Assembly: GCF_054482525.1 (NCBI RefSeq)
Contig: NZ_CM137006.1
Strand: one strand, 5' to 3'
DNA: 64,000 bases
In this document: piece after piece, positions 36,143 through 44,166 of the stretch
Position numbering within the stretch: the stretch's first letter is position 1
How the letters are laid out: the number at the start of each line of letters is the position of its first letter
The notes under the pieces: generated by a model
The model's input: the letters and a program-made list of their open reading frames with translations, nothing else
What the model was told of the DNA's origin: nothing
Databases searched by the model: none
Program-made: the position numbers and the translations under genes

Positions 36143-36224
36143 CAACCAAACGACTCGGGGTGCCCTTCTGCGTGAAGGCTGAGAAATACCCGTATCACCT
36201 GATCTGGATAATGCCAGCGTAGGG
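36143..36224. repeat. attL-like 82-bp direct repeat: duplicated 5' part of the thiM TPP-riboswitch aptamer
   Basis: Identical to 44033..44114. It lies between rcnR and an integrase gene. Confidence 0.85.
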
Positions 36225-36307
36225 GGCCAAAATAGTCTTGAAAATTATGTGGTTGTATCTCTTTTTGACCATAAATCATGCTGTTAAGGTACAAAAAGGG
36301 GTCGTTT

Positions 36308-37615
36308 ATGAGGTCAAGAACTCTCCCATACACATTTCAGCGAAACGGTAATTACTATCTACAAATCCGGCTTTCGGATGGTCGGATATACAAAAAATCA
36401 CTTTTTACTGACAGTTATCGCGAAGCATCGGCGTTGATGATTGGCCTTACTCCGCACATTCCTTTCGTTAAATCACTCGCTACTCCGTTGCCGCAATTTA
36501 ATAAGTTTGTTTCAAACTTGATCGCTTCGTCACGTAACGTAATGATTCCGTTGCCACTCCCTCAGCAATTGAACAATATTTCTAAAGAAGTTTTGCAGCT
36601 TCAACCACCAGCCAAACCGGAAAAGGTACTAACACTTGCTGATGCGTGGGCTATGTACAAGGAGGAAAGAGGTCGAAATTGGACAAAATCGATCTCAATA
36701 GCAAATGAGCGTTATATGGAGGTATTGCTTGTTGTCTTGGGAAAAGAAACAGACGTAACGGCAATCACCAAACAAGATATTAAGCGAGTAATGGAAACTG
36801 TCGAAAACTTACCAAAGCGTGTAGTGCAACCGTATAGGTCAATGACTATTCAGCAACTAATCGAATGTGATGATGTGCTGCCAGAGGATTTAGTTGGTGC
36901 TGAGGCTGTACATAAGCACCTTAAAATCTACAAATCGTTATTCAAAACATTTCTGACTGAAAACAAAGATATTCTATCTAAGTCTCCGACTGATGGAATA
37001 GTAGCGGCACCATCCAAAGCTAGGTTTGGTGCATACAGTGCAGCAGAAATGAAAAAATTTGTAGGATGGGCACTAAAGCAGCCTGATGGATGGCAGAAGT
37101 GGATCACTTTGTTGTTGGCGTACACAGGAGCCAGAAGAGGTGAGATTGCTAAACTGGAGAAGTCGCAGATCAAATTTGATGAAGATAGCCAGCGGCACTA
37201 TCTTCTGATCGCGGAAAGAAGGCTGGGTAAAACTGAGAATGCTACAAGACAGGTAGTGATTCATCCCAAACTGATTGAGTGGGGGTTTCTGGATTTTGTT
37301 AACCGCCAATGGAAAGAGAAAATCTTTTCGGAAGTCTCAGGTCGAAATATGTCAAAGATAGGTAAAGTTCTTTCAGATGTTCGTGATCAGCTTGATATTC
37401 CTTATCTTGATGATTATGGGCAGCGGCGCTTGGTGCATAGTTTCCGGCATACTATGATTTCTACTTGTTTAGCTGGTTGGGTGAGTAATTTGGCGCATCT
37501 GCAACAGGTGGTAGGTCATGAAAAGAGTGGAGTAGGGATTACCCAGCGTTATCTGCACACATTCCCACTTTCCACCGTTTGTTATGTGATCGATGGTCTT
37601 TGTTGGGAGACTTAG
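36308..37615 (+). CDS. tyrosine-type site-specific integrase
   Basis: 435 aa from MRSRTL, using the start downstream of RBS aaaagggg; the alternative start is at 36278. The C-terminal catalytic region has R...HSFRHT...Y (VHSFRHTMIS, ITQRYLH) and sits next to an att repeat. Confidence 0.8.
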   Translation: MRSRTLPYTFQRNGNYYLQIRLSDGRIYKKSLFTDSYREASALMIGLTPHIPFVKSLATPLPQFNKFVSNLIASSRNVMIPLPLPQQLNNISKEVLQLQPPAKPEKVLTLADAWAMYKEERGRNWTKSISIANERYMEVLLVVLGKETDVTAITKQDIKRVMETVENLPKRVVQPYRSMTIQQLIECDDVLPEDLVGAEAVHKHLKIYKSLFKTFLTENKDILSKSPTDGIVAAPSKARFGAYSAAEMKKFVGWALKQPDGWQKWITLLLAYTGARRGEIAKLEKSQIKFDEDSQRHYLLIAERRLGKTENATRQVVIHPKLIEWGFLDFVNRQWKEKIFSEVSGRNMSKIGKVLSDVRDQLDIPYLDDYGQRRLVHSFRHTMISTCLAGWVSNLAHLQQVVGHEKSGVGITQRYLHTFPLSTVCYVIDGLCWET

Positions 37616-37743: not shown

Positions 37744-38469
37744 ATGGTTAAAAATTTAGGCAAAAAATACAAGTATGGCGATCAACCGATAAGAGCTATT
37801 ACCATACAGATAATTGCTAATCAGTTTGGTGGGGCTGCAACGGCTAAGCAGGTAGATGATTATCTTAGAAAGCTATTTCCATCTTATAAAGATAATACTT
37901 GGCTCAATTTAATTGCTAATACAGTTAATTGTAAGCGGAGCTACTGGAGTTTCAACAAAACTGCCCGACGAACTGATGATGTAACTCATCGGCATCATAA
38001 GTATGACCGATTGTTCAAGCGTGGAAATATTTTTGAAATCTATCAACCATCTGTGCACGGTATTTGGGAATTATACCAGGATTTAGAAGGGATGTGGCGT
38101 TATCGTCAAGTAAAATCGGTTTTCGAAGAAGCTGTTGAGACGGCTGCAAAATTATCTTCAGTGGAACGAAAGCAAATTTTAGCGACAGAAAGTAAAATCC
38201 CGGAACTAATCGAAGTAACAACACGAGTTTATAAACGAAGCCCATATGTAGTTGCTGAAGTTCTTTTGAGAGCAAATGGAAAATGTCAATATTGTAAGCG
38301 AGATGCTCCTTTTCTAAAGGAAGATGGTACTCCATTTCTAGAAGTTCATCATATTGAGTGGCTTTCAAAGGGGGGGGAGGACTCTGTGGAAAATGCTATT
38401 GCATTATGTCCTAATTGCCATAGACAAGCCCATTATGGCGATCTGACATTACTACCTGTTAATAAATAG
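37744..38469 (+). CDS. McrA-like HNH endonuclease (putative type IV modification-dependent restriction enzyme)
   Basis: The C-terminal motif CQYCKRDAPFLKEDGTPFLEVHHIEWLSKGGEDSVENAIALCPNCHRQAHYGD is a close pattern match to the McrA HNH region. The N-terminal roughly 150 aa are unrelated to any family I recognise. Confidence 0.55.
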   Translation: MVKNLGKKYKYGDQPIRAITIQIIANQFGGAATAKQVDDYLRKLFPSYKDNTWLNLIANTVNCKRSYWSFNKTARRTDDVTHRHHKYDRLFKRGNIFEIYQPSVHGIWELYQDLEGMWRYRQVKSVFEEAVETAAKLSSVERKQILATESKIPELIEVTTRVYKRSPYVVAEVLLRANGKCQYCKRDAPFLKEDGTPFLEVHHIEWLSKGGEDSVENAIALCPNCHRQAHYGDLTLLPVNK

Positions 38470-38546
38470 GCTTGATGAAAGTTCTATTTCTATATTTTTC
38501 AATATACAAATTTCCCCAAAAACGGCGTGAATATCACGCCGATCAA

Positions 38547-38894
38547 TCATACTTCAGAACACATACTCAATGTGTAAACAGCCATCTCCCCATCGGGATT
38601 AGAAGGGCGTAATACAAATATCGGTATACTGCCATTGTCAATGTATGTGGCTGCAACCCCTCCGTCAGGTGTAGCATACATCTTTGCGATGCTTTTTTGA
38701 CCTACAAAATCAAGTCTCCAAGTTTTACCGCCAAGATTTATGGTCATTTTTTTATCTTGTATATCAAAAGTTGAATCTACAGAAACTTTCTGACTTCCCG
38801 AGTCAATATGACCTTCCTGTATTGCTTTACAGGAAAAGGTTGTGGCGTGGCCCATCACTGGAATTAACAAAGCGGCAAATACTAGTTTTTTCAT
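38547..38894 (-). CDS. small secreted protein (signal peptide MKKLVFAALLIPVMGHA)
   Basis: 115 aa from MKKL. RBS aagggagacaa. Convergent with the HNH gene. Confidence 0.5.
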   Translation of the reverse strand: MKKLVFAALLIPVMGHATTFSCKAIQEGHIDSGSQKVSVDSTFDIQDKKMTINLGGKTWRLDFVGQKSIAKMYATPDGGVAATYIDNGSIPIFVLRPSNPDGEMAVYTLSMCSEV

Positions 38895-39004
38895 TTGTCT
38901 CCCTTGGTGTGTCAAATGGATGGTGATGCTAATAATACATGATTGATTCAAAATGTCACGATTAGTGCGTGGTTAATTGGTGCGTCAAATTGCATCTTTG
39001 TGCC

Positions 39005-39469
39005 ATGCGAAAGAATCTGAGATACCTTTTTGGACAACGAGTAAAAGAGTTCCGTATAGCTATTGGCTTAAGCCAAGAGGCCTTTGCAGATCGGTGTGGT
39101 TTTGCACGTAGTTATATGAGTCGAATTGAGCGTGGTTGCTCTAATGCATCTCTTGATGCAATTGAGGTTCTGGCTGACGCTTTGCGTATTGAGCCTTGGC
39201 AGTTACTGGCTTCTGATTCAAGGAAACCTGATGATCAGGAGGTACTTGTTCCTTATGCTGCAGATGGGTCGTGTTTTCATCCAGGATTGGCAAGTACTCG
39301 CGATGGTTCGTTTAGAGTAGGGGAAAAATCAGCCCAGAAACGTTTCAGTTCGTTCAATGAAGCTCTCGAATACCTTCGTGGAATGGAAACCGCGAAGTGG
39401 CGTAGGCCTAATGCTAGTGGTAATTGGGGAATTGTATCTGCGGTTAAATGGGATCGACTGAATCAATAA
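39005..39469 (+). CDS. XRE-family HTH transcriptional regulator with a C-terminal extension
   Basis: HTH reads LRYLFGQRVKEFRIAIGLSQEAFADRCGFARSYMSRIERG. 154 aa. Confidence 0.65.
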   Translation: MRKNLRYLFGQRVKEFRIAIGLSQEAFADRCGFARSYMSRIERGCSNASLDAIEVLADALRIEPWQLLASDSRKPDDQEVLVPYAADGSCFHPGLASTRDGSFRVGEKSAQKRFSSFNEALEYLRGMETAKWRRPNASGNWGIVSAVKWDRLNQ

Positions 39470-39635
39470 GATATCAGTAATTTTCGGGCCACTCCACAAG
39501 GCAATAAGTGGCTTAGTGGTGATTATCGAAGGGGAATACAAGCGAGCACCTAGGCACCATTGCAAGAACCGCTCAACGCTGAGATCAGCAAGCCCCGATT
39601 TTTGCCGACCGTCCCTGTCAAATATCAAGGAGGCA

Positions 39636-40187
39636 TTACGCCACCTGCTCTTTCTTGATACGTTGCACCGTCTGCGTGCTGACACTGAAATCTTTTGCTA
39701 CGCTCCGAATTGAGCCACCATTCGCGAGAGCGGCAGCAATTCCCGCTCGATCAATTGCTTTTCCATTACCACGTTTTGCTATACGTCCAGCGGCCTTGGC
39801 TGCGGCGATCCCTTCACGTTGACGCTCAAGCATCATTTCACGTTCCATTTGTGCCACTGCTGCAAGAACTGTGAGCATCATATTCCCTGCGGGAGAGTTC
39901 TTTCCTGTCTTAAAGTCTTCTTTATGGAAATGCACAGACACGCCGCGCTTTGTTAATTGCTCTACAGTTGCCAGAAGGTCGGCTGTATTACGACAAAGGC
40001 GATCAATACTATGGACGTGTAACACGTCACCCTCCCGCACATAGTTCATCATTGCCTCAAACTGTGGGCGCTGAGTGTTCTTGCCTGACGCTTTATCTTC
40101 AAAGACTTTATCAAGAGTTACTCCTGCTAATTGACGGTCTGTGTTTTGTTGCACAGTCGATACCCTAATGTATCCAATATTAGCCAT
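39636..40187 (-). CDS. small serine recombinase (resolvase/invertase family)
   Basis: N-terminal catalytic motif IGYIRVSTVQQNTDRQ with the active-site Ser. The C-terminal HTH reads SIRSVAKDFSVSTQTVQRI. 183 aa. Confidence 0.8.
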   Translation of the reverse strand: MANIGYIRVSTVQQNTDRQLAGVTLDKVFEDKASGKNTQRPQFEAMMNYVREGDVLHVHSIDRLCRNTADLLATVEQLTKRGVSVHFHKEDFKTGKNSPAGNMMLTVLAAVAQMEREMMLERQREGIAAAKAAGRIAKRGNGKAIDRAGIAAALANGGSIRSVAKDFSVSTQTVQRIKKEQVA

Positions 40188-40219
40188 CTTCTTTTTTCTT
40201 CTGTATTGATTTGTGTGTA

Positions 40220-40325
40220 GTGATTATTGAACGTGTTGATTAGGTGTGTAAAGTACTTTTTTCACTACGAAATTCGAAGTTTTTTAGTGTGGTGATTTAG
40301 CCTGCCTTATCACTACACTTCTTGC
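40220..40325. promoter_or_regulatory. candidate res/recombination site: clustered inverted copies of GTGTAGTGAT(T/A)A just upstream of the serine recombinase gene
   Basis: Motifs found at about 40226 (gtgtagtgatta), 40262 (tcactacg, inverted), 40283 (agtgtggtgatt) and 40309 (atcactacac, inverted). The arrangement resembles multi-subsite res sites. Confidence 0.3.
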
Positions 40326-40571
40326 ATGAGAATCATGTAGTTACATTTTGGTAAAATTAGCAAGCTATTAAATTGTGTGTTTATTTTGAAAAAATAATTT
40401 TTGTTGCATTAAAGAAAACTTGTTCGACAAATAATAGGTTGATTTTTGATCAATAATTTCTGATAGTGCTCTGTAAGCCGCATTACACAAGGCGCAGCGA
40501 AAGTGATGTAAAAGTGAAGAAAGCTAACATTGCACTTTTAAACTACTTTTCATTGAATTTTTTAGTATGGA

Positions 40572-40644
40572 ATTACACAGGAATAAGTTAGGGATATTCT
40601 ATGATTTACACAGGGAATATAGGGGGATTATGGTATTACACAGA
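40572..40644. repeat. three spaced (a/t)ttacacag motifs, 33 and 31 bp apart, upstream of the iterons
   Basis: attacacagg at 40572, tttacacagg at 40605 and attacacaga at 40636. Possible protein-binding array (DnaA- or IHF-like sites or Rep auxiliary sites). Confidence 0.35.
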
Positions 40645-40673
40645 GTGAGTGCTATGTGATGATTGGTAGTAAC

Positions 40674-40783
40674 GGTAGGTCACTGTGAACTAGGGGGGTA
40701 GGTCACTGTGAACTAGGGGGGTAGGTCACTGTGAGCTAGGGGGTAGGTCACTGTGAACTAGGGGGTAGGTCACTGTGAACTAC
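40674..40783. repeat. five tandem 22/23-bp iterons (TAGGTCACTGTGAACTAGGGGG), putative replication origin
   Basis: Copies start at 40676, 40699, 40722, 40744 and 40766. They are directly followed by an AT-rich tract of about 90 bp (40784..40870) made of ataataagactat-type repeats, a candidate DNA-unwinding element. There are no spacers, so this is not CRISPR. Confidence 0.85.
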
Positions 40784-41884
40784 AATAAGACTATAATAAG
40801 ACTATTAATAAAACTATATTAGATTATTAATTAGATCATAATAATAATATTCTTTATATCTATATATATATGATCTTTTGCCTTCCGGCGTTAGCTTCAC
40901 TCTCTGGCAAGCAGCCTTACTCCGCTACCTTTCGGGCTACGTTGGCTGGCCCGTTCCGCTCACACCGAAAGCAAAGCGTTACTTTCTTCGTGTAACTTCG
41001 TTGGCGGTAACGCCCACGAAGGAATACTATTGCGCTGTGCGCAGTAAGAGTAATCACCTAACCAATCATCTGATTGCTTACGTGTTAACTCTCTCTAACT
41101 CTTAATTACCCTCCTACATTTAATAACTCTCGTTATTCTCTGTAGTTGTGTAATTACTCGAAGAGAGAGCGGCTAAAGCTCAATTACACTCTGCTTTCCT
41201 CGTGTAATTTCACTAAGCCTCAATACAATTTCACTTCCTACATTCTGTAGTCGTGTAATTGTTTTCGGTGGAAAAGCCAGAGGCGACACCGAAAGAGAAT
41301 TCTGATCTTATTAATCTTATCTATCTTAGTTATCTTACTTACTTTATCTACTTTATTATTAATAATAGCTTTATAAGCTCTCTGTGTAGCTCTCTGACGC
41401 AAGAAACAGAGTTCAGGAAGGGAATCACCTTAGAAAAGTGTTCTTTGCGTCATAATGTGTTTTATGAAGGATTCAGAGGTGTTTCATAACAGAGATGTAT
41501 AGAGGATACTTTAGGTAATTAAAAATAAGGGGTCTAAATGCTTCTCTAACAGCATTAAGCAGGGTAGAGAATGGAAACCGCTTTGCCTACATATATAAAC
41601 TCACTACAGGGCTTTACAGAGCGTTTTATAAAGTGACTCTCTGTTTTATATCTACCATCACCTTTTCATATACCTAACAAATACAAAATAAGCCCCTTAA
41701 ATAAGCCTCTGGCGAGCTAAACAGCCATTACATAAGAGAATGTATTGCTTTTATCAAAACCTCGTTAGAACGCGTTTTAGAGCGTTTTAGCGGATAATGA
41801 AGAATAGCACTACACAGGAGAGCACGAATTGCTAAGAAAAAATGTAACTACATGAAAAAGATCAGATTTTTTGTGAAAAGGTAT

Positions 41885-41913
41885 TGACAAACGTCTCTTT
41901 CTGTGCAATAATA
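41885..41913 (+). promoter_or_regulatory. sigma70-like promoter (TTGACA-17-AATAAT) for the small-gene operon
   Basis: Consensus -35, 17-bp spacer and an A/T-rich -10, located about 125 bp upstream of the first ORF. Confidence 0.4.
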
Positions 41914-42038
41914 GGTATTAGAGGGACAGGAATAGATTCTTATCCTCTAAATAATTAAACCAATGCACCGCACTTTGAAGCCCAAGGCTTGTAAGGTGTG
42001 TTTTTTCTTTTAACCAAATAGAATAAGGAGGCTAATTA

Positions 42039-42227
42039 ATGAAATATTTTACTCCACAGGATGTAGTAGAAGCCTGGAAACGTGGTGAGATCAACCGCTT
42101 TAAAGTAAGGATGTATAGAAACACCGCTCGCCGTTGTGGTTATCCAGAGCGTGAAAAATGTTTTGACGATGCACTAAAAATTATTGATGAACTGCGTAAA
42201 GCTGAGAAAGAAGCAGAGAAAAAATAA
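42039..42227 (+). CDS. hypothetical 62-aa basic protein
   Basis: Strong RBS aaggagg. It is the first gene of a tightly packed 4-gene operon. Confidence 0.45.
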   Translation: MKYFTPQDVVEAWKRGEINRFKVRMYRNTARRCGYPEREKCFDDALKIIDELRKAEKEAEKK

Positions 42228-42249
42228 TAGACAAGAGAAGGAGAAAACT

Positions 42250-42417
42250 ATGAGCGAAACTAAGAAACCAATTCCGCGCACTTACCTACACGTTGACCCT
42301 GAAATCTTCAAGGTTTTATTTGCTGAAGCCAAGAAAAGGCAAATTATGGTCAGTGATTTGATGTTAGAAATCATTACTGAAGCAGCAGAGAACATCAAAC
42401 AAAAAAAGGGTAAGTGA
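42250..42417 (+). CDS. 55-aa putative ribbon-helix-helix (CopG/Arc-like) DNA-binding protein
   Basis: RBS aggag. Its size and the N-terminal beta-strand (PRTYLHVDPEIF) followed by two helices look RHH-like. This is an inference from sequence pattern only. Confidence 0.35.
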   Translation: MSETKKPIPRTYLHVDPEIFKVLFAEAKKRQIMVSDLMLEIITEAAENIKQKKGK

Positions 42418-42468
42418 TCCTCATTCACTTTAGTAGCGCATTAAGCGTGATTTATAAGGAGATTTTTA

Positions 42469-43158
42469 ATGATTAATCAACTAACTTTTACAAAACACTA
42501 TGACACGTTTGATAATGTATCAAAGATTTATTCTGATAAATTCCCTCAAGGAAAAGATTTAGATCTATTACATATTGTGCTTTATTTTCGATTCCTTAGT
42601 TATCAGGAAAACAACCTTAATTGTTATGAAAGTCACGAAACATTAGCTAAGATTTTTAAGTCTTCAGCGTCAACAATTAAACGTAAGATAAACGATCTTA
42701 AAGAGATGGGATTATTAGAAACATCCCCACATCCTGATCCGTATATTTCATCTTTGATTTACAATGCTCTCCCTCTCACAGATGCACATATTACTCCCCC
42801 AGGAGAATCATCACTCTCTGATCTTTCTGAGGCAGAAGAAGCACAGGAACAACCTAAAGGCCATAAACAGCCTTCTTTTGATGTTCTTGATGATTGGGAT
42901 ACGCCTTTACCCTGGGAGACGGAAGAAACACCTGTTTCATCAAGTGAAAAAGTAGCTAATGATAATGAGGAGGATGTGTTAGAGAATTTTGCCTCTCTTA
43001 TCATCCAGGAGAAACACACAAGAACAGGAGGAGCATCATTTATTGAGTTTGCAAATTCACTAGCTTGTAGATACGGGCTAAAACGACCAAATGGTATTGA
43101 GGCATATTTTTCTAAGAATTACCCAAATATATACGATGACTTTGATATTCCATTTTAA
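42469..43158 (+). CDS. 229-aa winged-helix protein with an acidic disordered C-terminal half, candidate replication initiator
   Basis: HTH-like segment HETLAKIFKSSASTIKRKINDLKEMGLLE. Strong RBS taaggag. It is encoded downstream of the iteron array. No recognised family without a search. Confidence 0.4.
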   Translation: MINQLTFTKHYDTFDNVSKIYSDKFPQGKDLDLLHIVLYFRFLSYQENNLNCYESHETLAKIFKSSASTIKRKINDLKEMGLLETSPHPDPYISSLIYNALPLTDAHITPPGESSLSDLSEAEEAQEQPKGHKQPSFDVLDDWDTPLPWETEETPVSSSEKVANDNEEDVLENFASLIIQEKHTRTGGASFIEFANSLACRYGLKRPNGIEAYFSKNYPNIYDDFDIPF

Positions 43159-43169
43159 TAAGGAGGGTT

Positions 43170-43415
43170 ATGATTCAATATTTAGTAAAAAATCAAGTAG
43201 ACAGAATTCAGTGTAATGACACAGGAAAACGCATCTACGAGACACTTGTTTACCTCTATAAAGGAAAGCCAACACCGCTAAAATATAGCGATGTGTTACA
43301 TCGAGCAGGTTGCTCTGAGTCAGGTTTAAAATTCTGGCTGAAACAGCTATCAAATTTCGGTGTTATTGAAATGAAAGAGCTGTCTTTTTCTACATTCAAC
43401 CTCAAGAAGTTATAG
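43170..43415 (+). CDS. 81-aa putative winged-helix DNA-binding protein
   Basis: RBS aaggaggg. The segment DVLHRAGCSESGLKFWLKQLSNFGVIE resembles a wHTH. Confidence 0.4.
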   Translation: MIQYLVKNQVDRIQCNDTGKRIYETLVYLYKGKPTPLKYSDVLHRAGCSESGLKFWLKQLSNFGVIEMKELSFSTFNLKKL

Positions 43416-43580
43416 AAAATAGAATTCATCTATTCCACGCTCTAATTCTATTTCTCTGTTTAATATAAAAGGAAAACATTATTATGGTAATAGCTATGTG
43501 GTGGTTGTTGTTTTTTATGCTCGTAGAAACATATGCAAGTAAGTCTGGAAAACAAAAATAATATATTGATGATTTGTTTT

Positions 43581-43820
43581 TTATAACTTCGTGGTGTCAA
43601 GTCCAGCAGCTTTGAGTCGCTCGGTAAGATTTCTCATTTTGCTGAACTCTGTACCAAAGCTGGCTTTAAGTCCTACACCTTCACAAAACTCTTTTGCCGT
43701 AACCTTTTTCAGATGGTCAGCATATTTGATCATCTGGAGGTGCATTTCCATCGTTTGGCTATTTCGTGGTGCGCTGCTAATGGCTTGCTTAATGTTCTCG
43801 TAGATCTGGGTTTCTGTCAT
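43581..43820 (-). CDS. 79-aa hypothetical protein, convergent with the operon, at the island right end
   Basis: RBS ggtgag. No recognised family. Confidence 0.4.
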   Translation of the reverse strand: MTETQIYENIKQAISSAPRNSQTMEMHLQMIKYADHLKKVTAKEFCEGVGLKASFGTEFSKMRNLTERLKAAGLDTTKL

Positions 43821-44032: not shown

Positions 44033-44114
44033 CAACCAAACGACTCGGGGTGCCCTTCTGCGTGAAGGCTGAGAAATACCCGTATCACCTGATCTGGATA
44101 ATGCCAGCGTAGGG
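44033..44114. repeat. attR-like 82-bp direct repeat (5' part of the native thiM riboswitch)
   Basis: Identical to 36143..36224. It is contiguous with the remainder of the thiM leader. Confidence 0.85.
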
Positions 44115-44166
44115 AAGTCACGGACCACCAGGTCATTGCTTCTTCACGTTATGGCAGGAGCAAACT
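44033..44166 (+). ncRNA. TPP (thi-box) riboswitch in the thiM 5' leader
   Basis: The sequence ...ACGACTCGGGGTGCCCTTCTGCGTGAAGGCTGAGAAATACCCGTATCACCTGATCTGGATAATGCCAGCGTAGGGAAGTCACGGACCACCAGGTCATTGCTTCTTCACGTTATGGCAGGAGCAAACTATG matches the well-studied E. coli thiM riboswitch, both aptamer and expression platform. Confidence 0.9.

What the first reader, a model, noticed from the sequence alone, without database searches (positions are those of the whole stretch)
42039..43415. Compact four-gene operon (62, 55, 229 and 81 aa) downstream of the iterons resembles a cop–rep replication/control module
All four ORFs have strong, correctly spaced Shine–Dalgarno sites (aaggagg, aggag, taaggag, aaggaggg). 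They are separated by 10–50 nt and follow a TTGACA-17-AATAAT promoter. The 55-aa protein has the size and the beta-strand-then-helix layout of CopG/Arc ribbon-helix-helix repressors. The 229-aa protein has an N-terminal winged-helix-like segment and a long acidic, low-complexity C-terminal half. The 81-aa protein again looks like a wHTH. I do not recognise any of them as a named family.
Basis: inference. Interest (0 to 1): 0.55.

Follow-up and report, generated by a model that had tools for sequence, protein, structure and literature searches.

The report
Replication module of an integrated island
The four small genes are real and form the replication-and-control module of a common but apparently undescribed family of small E. 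coli chromosomal islands; the replication starter protein ends in a tail that copies the tail of the host's single-strand DNA-binding protein.

Summary
Observation confirmed. The four ORFs are 42039-42227, 42250-42417, 42469-43158 and 43170-43415. Their Shine-Dalgarno sites and the TTGACA-17-(TG)AATAAT promoter are present. Gene order is conserved across Enterobacterales.

The ORFs lie in a 7.9-kb island inserted in the thiM TPP riboswitch of E. coli.

Gene 3 (229 aa) is most likely an iteron-specific replication initiator:
- It has a winged-helix N-domain, a disordered acidic linker and a small helical C-domain.
- It matches phage replication-initiator families.
- In relatives its N-domain changes together with the 22-bp iterons 1.7 kb upstream, while genes 1 and 2 stay the same.
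- Its last residues (DFDIPF-COOH) resemble the SSB tip (MDFDDDIPF). This suggests, without proof, that it recruits SSB-binding host replication proteins.

Gene 2 is a probable ribbon-helix-helix repressor, but not a CopG family member by sequence. Gene 1 belongs to an orphan family. Gene 4 is a small winged-helix protein cut short here by a stop codon.

The "cop-rep-like" reading is largely right in function. None of Rep_3, RepA_N, RepL or CopG membership is met. The verdict is a new variant of a known kind. Replication itself is untested.

The parts
36143..36224 (+). attL: left copy of the 82-bp direct repeat, part of the thiM TPP riboswitch
   Evidence: Identical 82-bp stretch in both copies. 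Rfam TPP hits at 36146-36241 and 44036-44132. RefSeq annotates two riboswitches.
36278..37615 (+). Tyrosine integrase of the island
   Evidence: RefSeq annotation. 77-79% identical integrases next to thiM in Enterobacter, Serratia and Erwinia islands that carry the same module.
39636..40187 (-). Serine recombinase (resolvase/invertase family) beside the origin region; possibly resolves multimers
   Evidence: Pfam Resolvase 1.1e-38. PHROG DNA invertase 2.2e-61. Found left of the iteron region in most related islands.
40671..40787 (+). Five tandem 22-23-bp iterons, GGTAGGTCACTGTGAACTAGGGG
   Evidence: the repeat finder family D1. TRF period 22, 4.8 copies, 96% match. The sequence class changes with the gene-3 N-domain class in relatives.
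40784..40870 (.). AT-rich stretch (13.8% GC in 40780-40859); candidate DNA-unwinding element
   Evidence: Composition profile. The same iteron-then-AT-rich order is seen in L002-L006.
40866..41000 (.). Highly conserved, structured, non-coding GC-rich block of unknown role (candidate priming site or other cis site)
   Evidence: 96-100% identical in 11 E. coli copies whatever the Rep type, and 87-94% in Enterobacter and Serratia. A 2-nt indel rules out coding. DNA fold z-scores -3.0 and -4.3. No match in plasmids or phages.
41839..41855 (.). 17-bp site AAAATGTAACTACATGA just upstream of the promoter; a perfect inverted copy lies at 40333-40349 upstream of the recombinase gene; candidate shared operator
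   Evidence: Inverted repeat I3, 17/17. The right copy is present in L012-L020. No genome shows the inverted junction.
41884..41912 (+). Operon promoter TTGACA-17-AATAAT with extended -10 TG
   Evidence: 11 of 12 matches. -35, TG and -10 invariant in 13 E. coli copies. Equivalent TTGACA-17-TATTAT promoters in other genera.
41918..41950 (+). Inverted repeat or hairpin just downstream of the -10 (TTAGAGGG...CCTCTAA); candidate operator or RNA hairpin
   Evidence: RNAfold of 10 leader variants. Other genera carry a different palindrome, TGATAAnnnTTATCA, at the same place (read directly).
41969..42011 (+). Intrinsic terminator in the 5' leader: 13-14-bp stem plus a T tract
   Evidence: Folds in all 10 E. 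coli variants. L007 has a paired deletion, one base on each arm. A non-homologous GC-rich hairpin plus T6 sits at the same position in Enterobacter, Serratia and Erwinia.
42039..42227 (+). Gene 1: 62-aa basic protein of an orphan family; function unknown
   Evidence: Ten invariant columns between the two subfamilies, including M1, Y3, F4, G16 and R20. 58 clusters, all Enterobacterales, none with a Pfam domain. 10 synonymous versus 3 non-synonymous differences to L007.
42250..42417 (+). Gene 2: 55-aa probable ribbon-helix-helix DNA-binding protein; candidate repressor of the operon
   Evidence: Family profile versus PDB: AvtR 4.5e-5, MazE7, ParG. Weak Pfam RHH families in members. Discrete allele: 215 genomes, all at least 95% identical.
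42469..43158 (+). Gene 3: 229-aa initiator (Rep) made of wHTH 10-112, disordered acidic linker 115-165, helical domain 166-224 and an SSB-like tip ...YDDFDIPF
   Evidence: PHROG replication-initiator hits. AF2 model with pLDDT 73. BFVD hits. Iteron co-variation. Conserved C-terminus.
43170..43415 (+). Gene 4: small wHTH protein, cut to 81 aa by a TAG codon (family length 92 aa)
   Evidence: Alignment A4. Read-through translation gives ...KKL*KIEFIYSTL*. 3-nt deletion plus stop relative to L002 and L013. PefI and ArsR wHTH hits at E 0.012-0.019.
43581..43820 (-). 79-aa HTH_73 protein, conserved at the right end of most related thiM-integrated islands
   Evidence: Pfam HTH_73 9.9e-31. 94% identical in L003, L005 and L009.
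44033..44114 (+). attR: right copy of the 82-bp direct repeat, within the functional TPP riboswitch in front of thiM

Best explanation
The operon is the replication and control module of a small integrative element. The element is a 7.9-kb island inserted in the thiM TPP riboswitch.

Shown or strongly indicated:
- The four genes are real and are arranged as one transcription unit.
- Gene 3 encodes a modular DNA-binding protein of the phage O-like/HTH_36 initiator kind.
- The N-terminal winged helix of gene 3 determines which 22-bp iterons go with it.
- The iterons are followed by an AT-rich stretch.
- The island encodes no helicase, primase or loader.
- No DnaA box lies in the non-coding region.

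Inferred mechanism:
1. After excision the element replicates as a circle.
2. Rep binds the five iterons and opens the AT-rich region.
3. Its C-terminal half brings in host replication proteins. That half is an acidic disordered linker, a small helical domain and the free C-terminal ...DFDIPF. The tip mimics the SSB tip that binds PriA, chi, PriC, DnaG and others.

Inferred control:
- Gene 2, a ribbon-helix-helix protein, represses the strong promoter. This makes it a functional analogue of CopG or CopB.
- The conserved intrinsic terminator in the leader keeps the operon low until read-through is induced.
- The roles of gene 1 (basic orphan protein) and gene 4 (small wHTH, truncated here) are unknown.
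- The neighbouring serine recombinase would resolve multimers.
For: Context:
- The window is 100% identical to E. coli PCN033. The island is flanked by a duplicated TPP riboswitch and begins with an integrase.

Gene 3 as initiator:
- PHROG replication initiation protein phrog_270 at 1.9e-9, plus O-like and DnaD-like families.
- The E. coli variant with an unrelated N-domain hits the same families (4.5e-11; O-like 8.7e-8).
- The AF2 model built with an alignment shows wHTH, a disordered linker and a helical C-domain.
- BFVD gives 30 matches at E <= 1e-3. The named ones include replication protein, replication initiator, replisome organizer and gpO N-terminal.

Co-variation of gene 3 with the iterons:
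- Iterons with period 22-23 bp followed by AT-rich DNA lie about 1.4-1.8 kb upstream of gene 3 in the window, in relatives from four other genera, and in most but not all E. coli copies (details under evidence against). Their sequence class follows the Rep N-domain class.
- L006 has a Rep 43% identical to the window's, and related iterons.
- Window versus L007: 94.8% identity over 39620-40584 and 91.6% over 41611-42471, but no similarity across the iteron region, and a 37%-identical Rep. Genes 1 and 2 are 98-100% identical.

Dependence on the host:
- No helicase or primase among the island proteins.
- No DnaA box within one mismatch in 40188-42038.

SSB-like tip:
- The window protein ends in YDDFDIPF. 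SSB ends in MDFDDDIPF, and that peptide binds PriA, chi, PriC and RecO (PMC7145534; PMC5872125).
- 10 of 11 locus Reps end in [IL]PF. 15 of about 17 full-length representatives end in xPF or a similar x-x-F ending (IKF, IAF), despite 25-45% overall identity.
- 8 of 27 also carry an internal D[FLW]DD[LIV]P[FC] motif in the linker, and two more, including the window's Rep, a looser FDVLDDWDTPLPW version.
- The C-terminal half is kept when the N-domain is swapped.

Gene 2 as RHH.

Leader terminator, conserved in position with two unrelated sequences.
Against: - No experiment shows excision, replication or DNA binding.
- The window Rep scores just under Pfam's HTH_36 cut-off (24.4 versus 25) and matches no curated plasmid Rep family.
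- PDB fold matches are generic winged helices at E >= 0.02.
- NCBI annotates the protein as a transcriptional regulator.
- The Rep-iteron correlation is imperfect. L012 has the F-type Rep with other repeats. L015 and L020 have no clear iterons. L019 carries both iteron types.
- The iterons lie about 1.7 kb from the rep gene, farther than in most iteron plasmids.
- The SSB-tip resemblance covers only about 7 residues. Binding to any host protein is untested. An acidic tail could instead fold back on the protein's own DNA-binding domain.
- The RHH assignment rests on E 4.5e-5 to a single PDB protein, with no structure model.
- Gene 4 is truncated and the capsid genes found in relatives are absent, so this copy may be decaying.
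Confidence: 0.68

Rival explanations
1. Gene 3 is a transcription factor, as annotated, and the 22-bp repeats are an operator or enhancer array. In this reading the operon is a purely regulatory cassette. For example it could be the lysis-lysogeny or induction switch of a satellite that controls downstream morphogenetic genes. Replication would be left to a helper phage.
For: - NCBI names the protein 'transcriptional regulator' or 'HTH domain-containing'.
- PDB sequence and fold hits are MarR, ArsR and GntR-type regulators.
- In most E. coli relatives the operon sits directly upstream of capsid-like and tail-like genes.
- Three of the four products are small DNA-binding proteins.
Against: - Two unrelated N-domain variants both hit phage replication-initiator families rather than regulator families.
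- Named BFVD matches are replication proteins.
- The repeats are tandem and in phase, are followed by a 13.8% GC stretch, and lie 1.25 kb from the only strong promoter.
- No iteron copies occur near the capsid genes.
- The conserved acidic tail with a free IPF end is not a feature of regulators.
Confidence: 0.14
2. Gene 3 is a packaging-specificity or centromere-binding protein. It would bind the repeats as a pac or cos-like site, or as a partition site. Its C-terminal tail would recruit a helper phage terminase or another phage or partition partner. Gene 2 would be a ParG-like RHH partner.
For: - Relatives of the island carry capsid, tape-measure-like and Dit-like genes, which suggests a phage-satellite lifestyle needing a packaging signal.
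- Small terminase subunits and centromere-binding proteins also combine an N-terminal HTH with a C-terminal partner-binding tail.
- ParG is among the RHH hits of gene 2.
Against: - No terminase or ParA/ParF-type ATPase family is hit by any island protein.
- PHROG and BFVD hits for gene 3 are all in the replication category.
- The thiM-type islands, including this one, have no structural genes yet keep the module.
Confidence: 0.07
3. The SSB-like tail is not used for recruitment at the island's own origin. Instead it acts as a competitor. On this reading gene 3 titrates SSB-interacting proteins of the host or of an infecting phage, so it would be an interference or defence function. Alternatively the tail is an intramolecular autoinhibitory DNA mimic, as in T7 gp2.5 and T4 gp32.
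For: - The island carries defence cargo: a type IV restriction HNH endonuclease at 1.3e-23 and a C-protein-like regulator.
- The linker is strongly acidic and predicted disordered.
- Some relatives have two SSB-tip-like motifs.
- From established knowledge, acidic C-tails of phage SSBs regulate their own DNA binding.
Against: - The tail is fused to an iteron-specific DNA-binding domain and is retained when that domain is swapped. This fits delivery of a partner to a DNA site better than free competition.
- The operon appears to be kept at a low level by a leader terminator.
Confidence: 0.08

Closest known systems
Phage lambda O-like / HTH_36-type replication initiators (PHROGs 270, 428, 391, 678; Pfam PF13730)
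   Same: - N-terminal winged helix that binds tandem repeats in the origin.
- A flexible linker and a C-terminal part that contacts the replication machinery.
- Sequence hits at 1e-9 to 1e-11 and structural hits in BFVD.
   Different: - Much shorter: 229 aa against roughly 300-380 aa profiles.
- The iterons lie outside the gene, about 1.7 kb away. In lambda, ori lies inside the O gene (established knowledge).
- There is no P-like helicase loader next to it.
- It ends in an SSB-like tip.
- The window protein misses Pfam's HTH_36 cut-off by 0.6 bit.
RepA_N initiators of staphylococcal plasmids (pSK41 RepA; PDB 4pql, 4pt7, 5kbj) and the DnaD N-domain (2v79)
   Same: - Two-domain plan: an N-terminal DnaD-like winged helix that binds iterons, and a C-terminal host-specific domain that engages host replication proteins (established knowledge).
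- These are the top Foldseek PDB hits, with 116-120 aligned columns.
   Different: - The E-value is only 0.02-0.08 and TM about 0.28-0.46.
- There is no Pfam RepA_N hit.
- RepA_N iterons lie inside the rep gene (established knowledge).
- The phylum and the element type differ.
cop-rep control modules of plasmids: pMV158 copG-repB and R1 copB-copA-repA
   Same: - A small RHH-type or other small repressor gene lies just upstream of rep in one operon behind a strong promoter.
   Different: - Gene 2 is not a CopG family member by sequence.
- RepB is a rolling-circle nuclease and RepA of R1 does not use iterons (established knowledge).
- No antisense RNA is demonstrated here. A candidate minus-strand promoter and terminator are weak (my reading).
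- This module has an extra upstream gene and a leader terminator.
E. coli SSB C-terminal tip (SSB-Ct, MDFDDDIPF)
   Same: - A free C-terminal ...D-I-P-F preceded by acidic residues and a Phe.
- It sits at the end of a long disordered acidic, Pro-rich linker.
   Different: - It is attached to a sequence-specific double-strand DNA-binding winged helix, not an OB fold.
- A small folded helical domain lies between the linker and the tip.
- Binding to SSB partners is untested.
Known phage satellites of E. coli (P4-like, PICI, cfPICI) and satellite P4 immunity by premature termination
   Same: - A small integrase-bearing island with its own replication module.
- Relatives carry a capsid gene.
- A constitutive-looking promoter is followed by a leader terminator, which recalls P4's termination-based immunity (established knowledge; analogy only).
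   Different: - There is no AlpA, Pri-Rep helicase-primase, alpha primase, Sid/Psu/Delta, terminase small subunit, portal or protease.
- Induction and packaging are not shown.
- The window copy has no structural genes at all.

Membership tests
Iteron-type theta replicon (Rep plus iterons plus DUE) | Tandem direct repeats of about 17-22 bp, in helical phase | tested here: met
   Five copies, spacing 22-23 bp, 81-100% identity to the reference copy. TRF 96% match.
Iteron-type theta replicon (Rep plus iterons plus DUE) | AT-rich unwinding region adjacent to the iterons | tested here: met
   GC is 13.8% in 40780-40859. The same order is seen in relatives.
Iteron-type theta replicon (Rep plus iterons plus DUE) | Cognate initiator encoded in cis whose specificity matches the iterons | tested here: met
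   The iteron class follows the Rep N-domain class across window/L002, L003-5, L006, L007/L010, L009 and L013/18/19. Exceptions are L012, L015 and L020.
Iteron-type theta replicon (Rep plus iterons plus DUE) | DnaA boxes in the origin (usual in enterobacterial iteron plasmids) | tested here: not met
   No TTATCCACA within one mismatch between 40188 and 42038.
Iteron-type theta replicon (Rep plus iterons plus DUE) | Autonomous replication that depends on Rep and the iterons | not testable with these tools
   Needs a mini-replicon experiment.
Rep_3 / RepA_N / RepL plasmid initiators (Pfam) | Score above the family's gathering threshold | tested here: not met
   No hit to these families at E <= 1 for the window protein, or at E <= 0.01 for five relatives. 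Foldseek to RepA_N structures gives E 0.02.
HTH_36 / phage O-like replication initiators | Sequence match to the family models | tested here: inconclusive
   Pfam HTH_36 scores 24.4 bits against a cut-off of 25 for the window protein; the L006 relative scores 26.3 and passes. PHROG replication-initiator families hit at 1.9e-9 and 4.5e-11.
Ribbon-helix-helix repressors (CopG/Arc/MetJ superfamily), gene 2 | N-terminal beta strand followed by two helices with a turn; detectable homology to RHH proteins | tested here: inconclusive
   The family profile hits AvtR at 4.5e-5, then MazE7 and ParG. Weak member hits to NikA-like, HicB, FitA-like RHH and RHH_4.
CopG family proper (Pfam RHH_1) | Score above the gathering threshold | tested here: not met
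   No RHH_1 hit in the window protein or in 26 family members at E <= 1.
SSB-Ct-type interaction tip | Free C-terminal ...D-[IL]-P-F preceded by acidic residues at the end of a disordered segment | tested here: met
   The protein ends in YDDFDIPF-COOH. Residues 115-165 have pLDDT below 50. The ending is conserved in 10 of 11 locus Reps. The SSB sequence comes from PMC7145534.
SSB-Ct-type interaction tip | Binds the SSB-Ct pocket of PriA, chi, PriC, DnaG or similar partners | not testable with these tools
   Needs binding assays or complex prediction.
PICI / cfPICI / P4-like phage satellites | Hallmark genes: AlpA and Pri-Rep (PICI); capsid, portal, protease and TerS (cfPICI); alpha primase, Sid, Psu and Delta (P4) | tested here: not met
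   None were found among the window island proteins or in the capsid-type relative L002. That relative has only a gpE-like capsid protein, a tape-measure-like protein and a Dit-like protein.

The most novel reading that the evidence does not exclude
A family of small integrative elements is present in roughly one in eight complete E. coli genomes, and I found no description of it. On this reading it starts replication without DnaA boxes and without its own helicase, primase or loader. Its iteron-binding initiator carries a copy of the SSB C-terminal tip. That tip delivers PriA, PriC, chi or DnaG directly to a double-stranded origin. This would be a way of assembling a replisome that is not known for any plasmid or phage initiator. 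The operon would be held off by a leader terminator until a helper or stress signal allows read-through.
Probability: 0.3. Interest if true: 0.8.

Novelty: new variant of a known kind. Interest (0 to 1): 0.58.

Why it matters
If the model holds, it gives a simple and testable answer to how a minimal mobile element with one replication protein recruits the host replisome. The element would borrow the universal "address label" of SSB.

The work also defines the core module of a very common set of E. coli islands, which RefSeq currently annotates only as hypothetical proteins:
- DNA similar to the module occurs in 711 of 5,426 complete genomes.
- The exact 55-aa protein occurs in more than 14,000 assembly blocks.
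- The islands carry either anti-phage cargo or capsid-like and tail-like genes.

Swappable N-domain and iteron pairs on a constant C-terminal half would explain how several such islands coexist in one genome. They also offer a natural set of orthogonal mini-replicons.

Tried and rejected
1. Plasmid or phage origin of the module. tblastn of the 229-aa protein found only 2 weak partial hits in 72,556 plasmids and 1 in 50,697 phages. The module is specific to chromosomal islands.
2. Single-sequence AF2 model of gene 3. The model was poor (pLDDT 48.8). It was replaced by a model built from a 19-sequence alignment.
3. Invertible origin segment. A perfect 17-bp inverted repeat at 40333 and 41839 lies next to an invertase-like gene. 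All 12 related loci have the same orientation. A synthetic inverted-junction query was covered at 80% or more in 0 of 5,426 genomes. A shared operator is therefore more likely.
4. "Ultra-conservation" of gene 2 as evidence for an antisense RNA.
   - The block 42240-42468 has 2 variable columns of 219 in 13 copies.
   - An unbiased search shows it is a discrete allele: 215 genomes all at 95% identity or more, against a continuous 60-100% spread for gene 1 in 636 genomes.
   - The minus-strand terminator-like hairpin at 42277-42254 is weak (3 GC pairs). The only candidate promoter, TTGATT-18-TATAAA, has its -35 in variable DNA.
   - An antisense RNA is neither supported nor excluded.
5. Coding potential of the conserved GC-rich block. 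It is rejected by a 2-nt indel among copies. There is also no useful covariation for an RNA or ssDNA structure and no Rfam family.
6. Identity with Sakai prophage Sp1 at thrW. Rejected, because Sp1 is lambda-like.
7. Literature. Eight full-text searches found no description of these proteins, of a thiM-riboswitch island, or of an initiator with an SSB-like tail. One search searched six RefSeq accessions. The library is incomplete.
8. Toxin-antitoxin reading of genes 1 and 2. There is no HicA-like or other toxin family hit, and the RHH protein is too short to carry a neutralising domain. I kept this only as a remote possibility.
Full report
WHERE THIS IS

The window is E. coli chromosome, 100% identical over the query to strain PCN033. 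RefSeq annotation of that genome and Rfam show two TPP riboswitch copies, at 36146-36241 and 44036-44132. The two copies share an identical 82-bp stretch, 36143-36224 and 44033-44114. Between them lies a 7.9-kb island inserted in the leader of thiM. Its content, in order:
- a tyrosine integrase (36278-37615)
- an HNH endonuclease (37744-38469) that matches type IV methyl-directed restriction enzymes at 1.3e-23
- a secreted-looking 134-aa protein
- an XRE/C-protein-like regulator
- a serine recombinase (39636-40187, minus strand)
- 1.85 kb with no credible gene (40188-42038)
- the four ORFs of the finding
- a 79-aa HTH_73 protein on the minus strand

The ORFs, their Shine-Dalgarno sites, the 22, 51 and 11-nt gaps and the promoter are all as described. 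One correction: the 55-aa ORF starts at 42250.

The promoter's -35, TG and -10 are invariant in 13 E. coli copies whose flanks vary. The same gene order recurs in Enterobacter, Serratia, Buttiauxella, Erwinia and Citrobacter at 23-45% protein identity. Differences between E. coli copies are mostly synonymous. These are real genes.

Three details were missed:
- The iterons lie 1.25 kb upstream of gene 1 (40671-40787).
- Gene 4 is a 92-aa gene cut to 81 aa by a 3-nt deletion plus a TAG codon.
- The leader contains a terminator.

GENE 3 IS MOST LIKELY THE INITIATOR

Family matches. Pfam gives only a near-threshold HTH_36 match (24.4 versus 25 bits). PHROGs place the protein in replication-initiator families: phrog_270 at 1.9e-9, others including O-like, and a DnaD-like loader.

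Family size. The family is tiny. Only 39 representatives at E <= 1e-3 were found among 1.84 billion proteins.

Conserved parts. An alignment of distant members shows four features:
- an N-terminal winged helix
- a nearly invariant ALPLTDAHxxPP motif
- a variable acidic, Pro-rich linker
- a small C-terminal domain

Structure. An AlphaFold model built from that alignment (pLDDT 73) agrees: wHTH at 10-112, disordered 115-165, helices 166-224. Foldseek against PDB gives only generic winged helices. The top hits are RepA_N plasmid initiators and the DnaD N-domain, at E 0.02. Against viral models there are 30 hits at E <= 1e-3. The named ones are replication proteins, replisome organizers and gpO N-terminal domains.

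Comparative evidence is the strongest argument. About 1.4-1.8 kb upstream of gene 3, arrays of 22-23-bp direct repeats followed by AT-rich DNA occur in the window, in the relatives from four other genera and in most E. coli copies. The exceptions are listed after the table. Here the AT-rich stretch is 13.8% GC. The repeat sequence follows the class of the Rep N-domain:

| Loci | Repeat sequence |
|---|---|
| window, L002 and other A-type copies | GGTAGGTCACTGTGAACTAGGGG |
| L006 (Rep 43% identical) | GGGTCGGTCAGAGTGACGTAGG, a related repeat |
| L003, L004, L005 | TCAGGCACTATACCGGAGGGGG |
| L007, L010 | palindromic GTAACG...GTTAC units |
| L009 | GGCAATGATT..CC units |
| L013, L018, L019 (217-aa Rep with unrelated N-domain) | ACAGAATTCTGTTA units |

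The comparison of the window with L007 is the cleanest test:
- The recombinase side is 94.8% identical.
- The promoter, gene 1 and gene 2 are 91.6% identical at the DNA level, and the proteins are 98-100% identical.
- The iteron region has no similarity.
- Rep is only 37% identical.

So iteron type tracks gene 3, not genes 1 or 2.

The correlation is not perfect. L012 has other repeats, L015 and L020 have none, and L019 carries both types. This is expected for decaying chromosomal copies, but it is a caveat.

Other points on the origin:
- No iteron copies lie elsewhere in the capsid-bearing relatives.
- No DnaA box within one mismatch lies in the non-coding region.
- The island encodes no helicase, primase or loader.

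THE SSB-LIKE TAIL

The protein ends in ...NIYDDFDIPF. The last nine residues of E. coli SSB are MDFDDDIPF. That peptive-sized segment alone binds PriA, chi, PriC and RecO (PMC7145534; also PMC5872125 and PMC3632105).

Conservation of the ending:
- 10 of 11 Reps from the loci end in [IL]PF.
- 15 of about 17 full-length representatives end in xPF or a similar x-x-F ending (13 in xPF, plus IKF and IAF), although the proteins are only 25-45% identical.
- 8 of 27 members have a second, internal copy in the linker, such as PDFDDLPFVWD. Two more, including the window's own Rep, have a looser version, FDVLDDWDTPLPW.

When E. coli elements swap the N-domain (A-type 230 aa versus F-type 217 aa), the linker, C-domain and tip stay about 90% identical.

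This is the architecture expected if the N-domain reads the origin and the C-half talks to a constant partner. I infer that the partner is one or more SSB-interacting host proteins. This has not been tested. I found no paper describing an initiator with such a tail.

THE OTHER THREE GENES

Gene 2. A 26-member family profile hits the RHH protein AvtR at 4.5e-5, followed by the RHH proteins MazE7 and ParG. Individual members give weak hits to NikA-like, HicB, FitA-like and RHH_4 models. No CopG/RHH_1 hit is obtained. An RHH fold is probable. CopG membership is not met.

The DNA of gene 2 plus the spacer to gene 3 behaves as a discrete allele. It occurs in 215 genomes, all at 95% identity or more. 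The neighbouring gene-1 segment is found in 636 genomes, spread from 60 to 100%.

Gene 1 belongs to an orphan family of 58 clusters, all in Enterobacterales. It has ten invariant columns, including M1, Y3, F4, G16 and R20, and no family or PDB match.

Gene 4 looks like a small winged helix. It hits PefI and ArsR at E 0.012-0.019 and resembles the Rep N-domain by hhalign at 59% probability. It is missing in the thiM-type islands of other genera.

CONTROL

Between the promoter and gene 1 there are two elements:
- An inverted repeat lies immediately after the -10 (41918-41950).
- A 13-14-bp hairpin followed by a T tract lies at 41969-42011.

Both fold in all ten E. coli variants. L007 has lost one base on each arm of the terminator stem. 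In Enterobacter, Serratia and Erwinia an unrelated GC-rich hairpin plus T6 occupies the same place. A different palindrome, TGATAAnnnTTATCA, follows the -10 there.

A leader terminator conserved in position but not in sequence argues for control by termination and read-through. The palindrome at the start of the transcript suggests an operator. Which protein acts on which site is unknown.

WHAT KIND OF ELEMENT

DNA similar to 41000-43600 occurs in 711 of 5,426 complete E. coli genomes, almost always on the chromosome.

Most copies lie in 11-12-kb islands at tRNA genes and other sites. Those islands add a lambda gpE-like capsid protein, a tape-measure-like protein, a Dit-like protein and a different integrase. 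Some genomes hold two islands with different Rep types.

Islands integrated at thiM and carrying the module occur in several genera: L003, L004, L005, L009 and L010. Except for L004, they carry an integrase about 79% identical to the window's. They lack structural genes and carry variable cargo.

None of the hallmark genes of P4-like, PICI or cfPICI satellites were found. No publication was found. The searchable library is incomplete.

VERDICT

The family assignments it proposed to test are not met.

The module is a new variant of the iteron and initiator theme, and it sits in an integrative element. Two features are worth an experiment: an SSB-tip-like tail on the initiator, and a conserved leader terminator. 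Everything about function rests on sequence and comparative inference.

Noticed in passing
window 37744-39469: The island's cargo looks like anti-phage defence. A 241-aa HNH endonuclease matches type IV methyl-directed restriction enzymes (PADLOC 1.3e-23). A 166-aa XRE protein matches restriction-modification 'control' (C) proteins (6.6e-17) and has an extra C-terminal domain. A 134-aa protein with a signal-peptide-like N-terminus lies between them and is conserved in thiM-integrated islands of other genera.
   Followed up: partly
L002 16584-23495; L011-L020: Most E. coli relatives of the module sit in 11-12-kb islands at several chromosomal sites: next to a tRNA-Gly gene beside actS in L002, and downstream of proA or yggE in other loci. 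They encode a gpE-like major capsid protein (Pfam 8e-15), a 609-aa protein matching a tape-measure PHROG (1.1e-54) and a Dit-like tail protein (1.4e-29). They have no portal, protease or terminase. This looks like an undescribed satellite-like element.
   Followed up: partly
window 40866-41000: A non-coding GC-rich block lies immediately right of the AT-rich stretch. It is 96-100% identical in 11 E. coli copies whatever the Rep or iteron type, and 87-94% identical in Enterobacter and Serratia. It is absent from plasmid and phage collections. It folds strongly as single-stranded DNA (z -3.0 and -4.3) but shows no covariation. Its role is unknown; a priming or assembly site is a guess.
   Followed up: partly
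window 40333-40349 and 41839-41855: A perfect 17-bp inverted repeat, TCATGTAGTTACATTTT / AAAATGTAACTACATGA, has one copy upstream of the recombinase gene and one just upstream of the operon promoter. No genome shows the intervening 1.5 kb inverted.
   Followed up: yes
window 40479-40645 (+) and 40988-41260 (-): Short ATTACAC(A/G)G motifs occur 4-5 times left of the iterons. Their complements, GTGTAAT, occur about 4 times to the right, so oppositely oriented arrays flank the iteron and AT-rich core. A further palindromic repeat, TACCCCTATCAAnnTTGATACCC, occurs in several relatives (L002, L011, L012, L016, L017). The binding proteins are unknown.
   Followed up: no
window 42240-42468: Gene 2 plus the spacer to gene 3 is a sharply bounded low-diversity block. 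Only 2 of 219 columns vary among 13 copies, and all 215 genome hits are at 95% identity or more. The adjacent gene 1 varies continuously from 60 to 100% in 636 genomes. This suggests cassette-like alleles, or a nucleotide-level constraint such as a regulatory RNA.
   Followed up: partly
window 43482-43559: A short ORF with a Shine-Dalgarno site follows gene 4. It encodes a 25-aa hydrophobic peptide, MVIAMWWLLFFMLVETYASKSGKQK. Relatives have a called 38-aa gene at the same place.
   Followed up: no
window 36143-36224 and 44033-44114: The integrase targets the thiM TPP riboswitch and duplicates 82 bp of it, so an intact riboswitch is kept in front of thiM. Islands at the same site occur in Enterobacter, Serratia, Buttiauxella and Erwinia. 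Erwinia L009 has a second integrase copy beside the riboswitch repeat, which suggests tandem insertion.
   Followed up: partly
gene 3 residues 99-112 (window 42763-42804): The motif ALPLTDAHxxPP follows the wing of the winged helix. It is nearly invariant across otherwise 25-45% identical Reps (D105, H107 and P111 are invariant). Its DNA is the only part of gene 3 still alignable between the window and L007. It is absent from the F-type N-domain. Its function is unknown.
   Followed up: no
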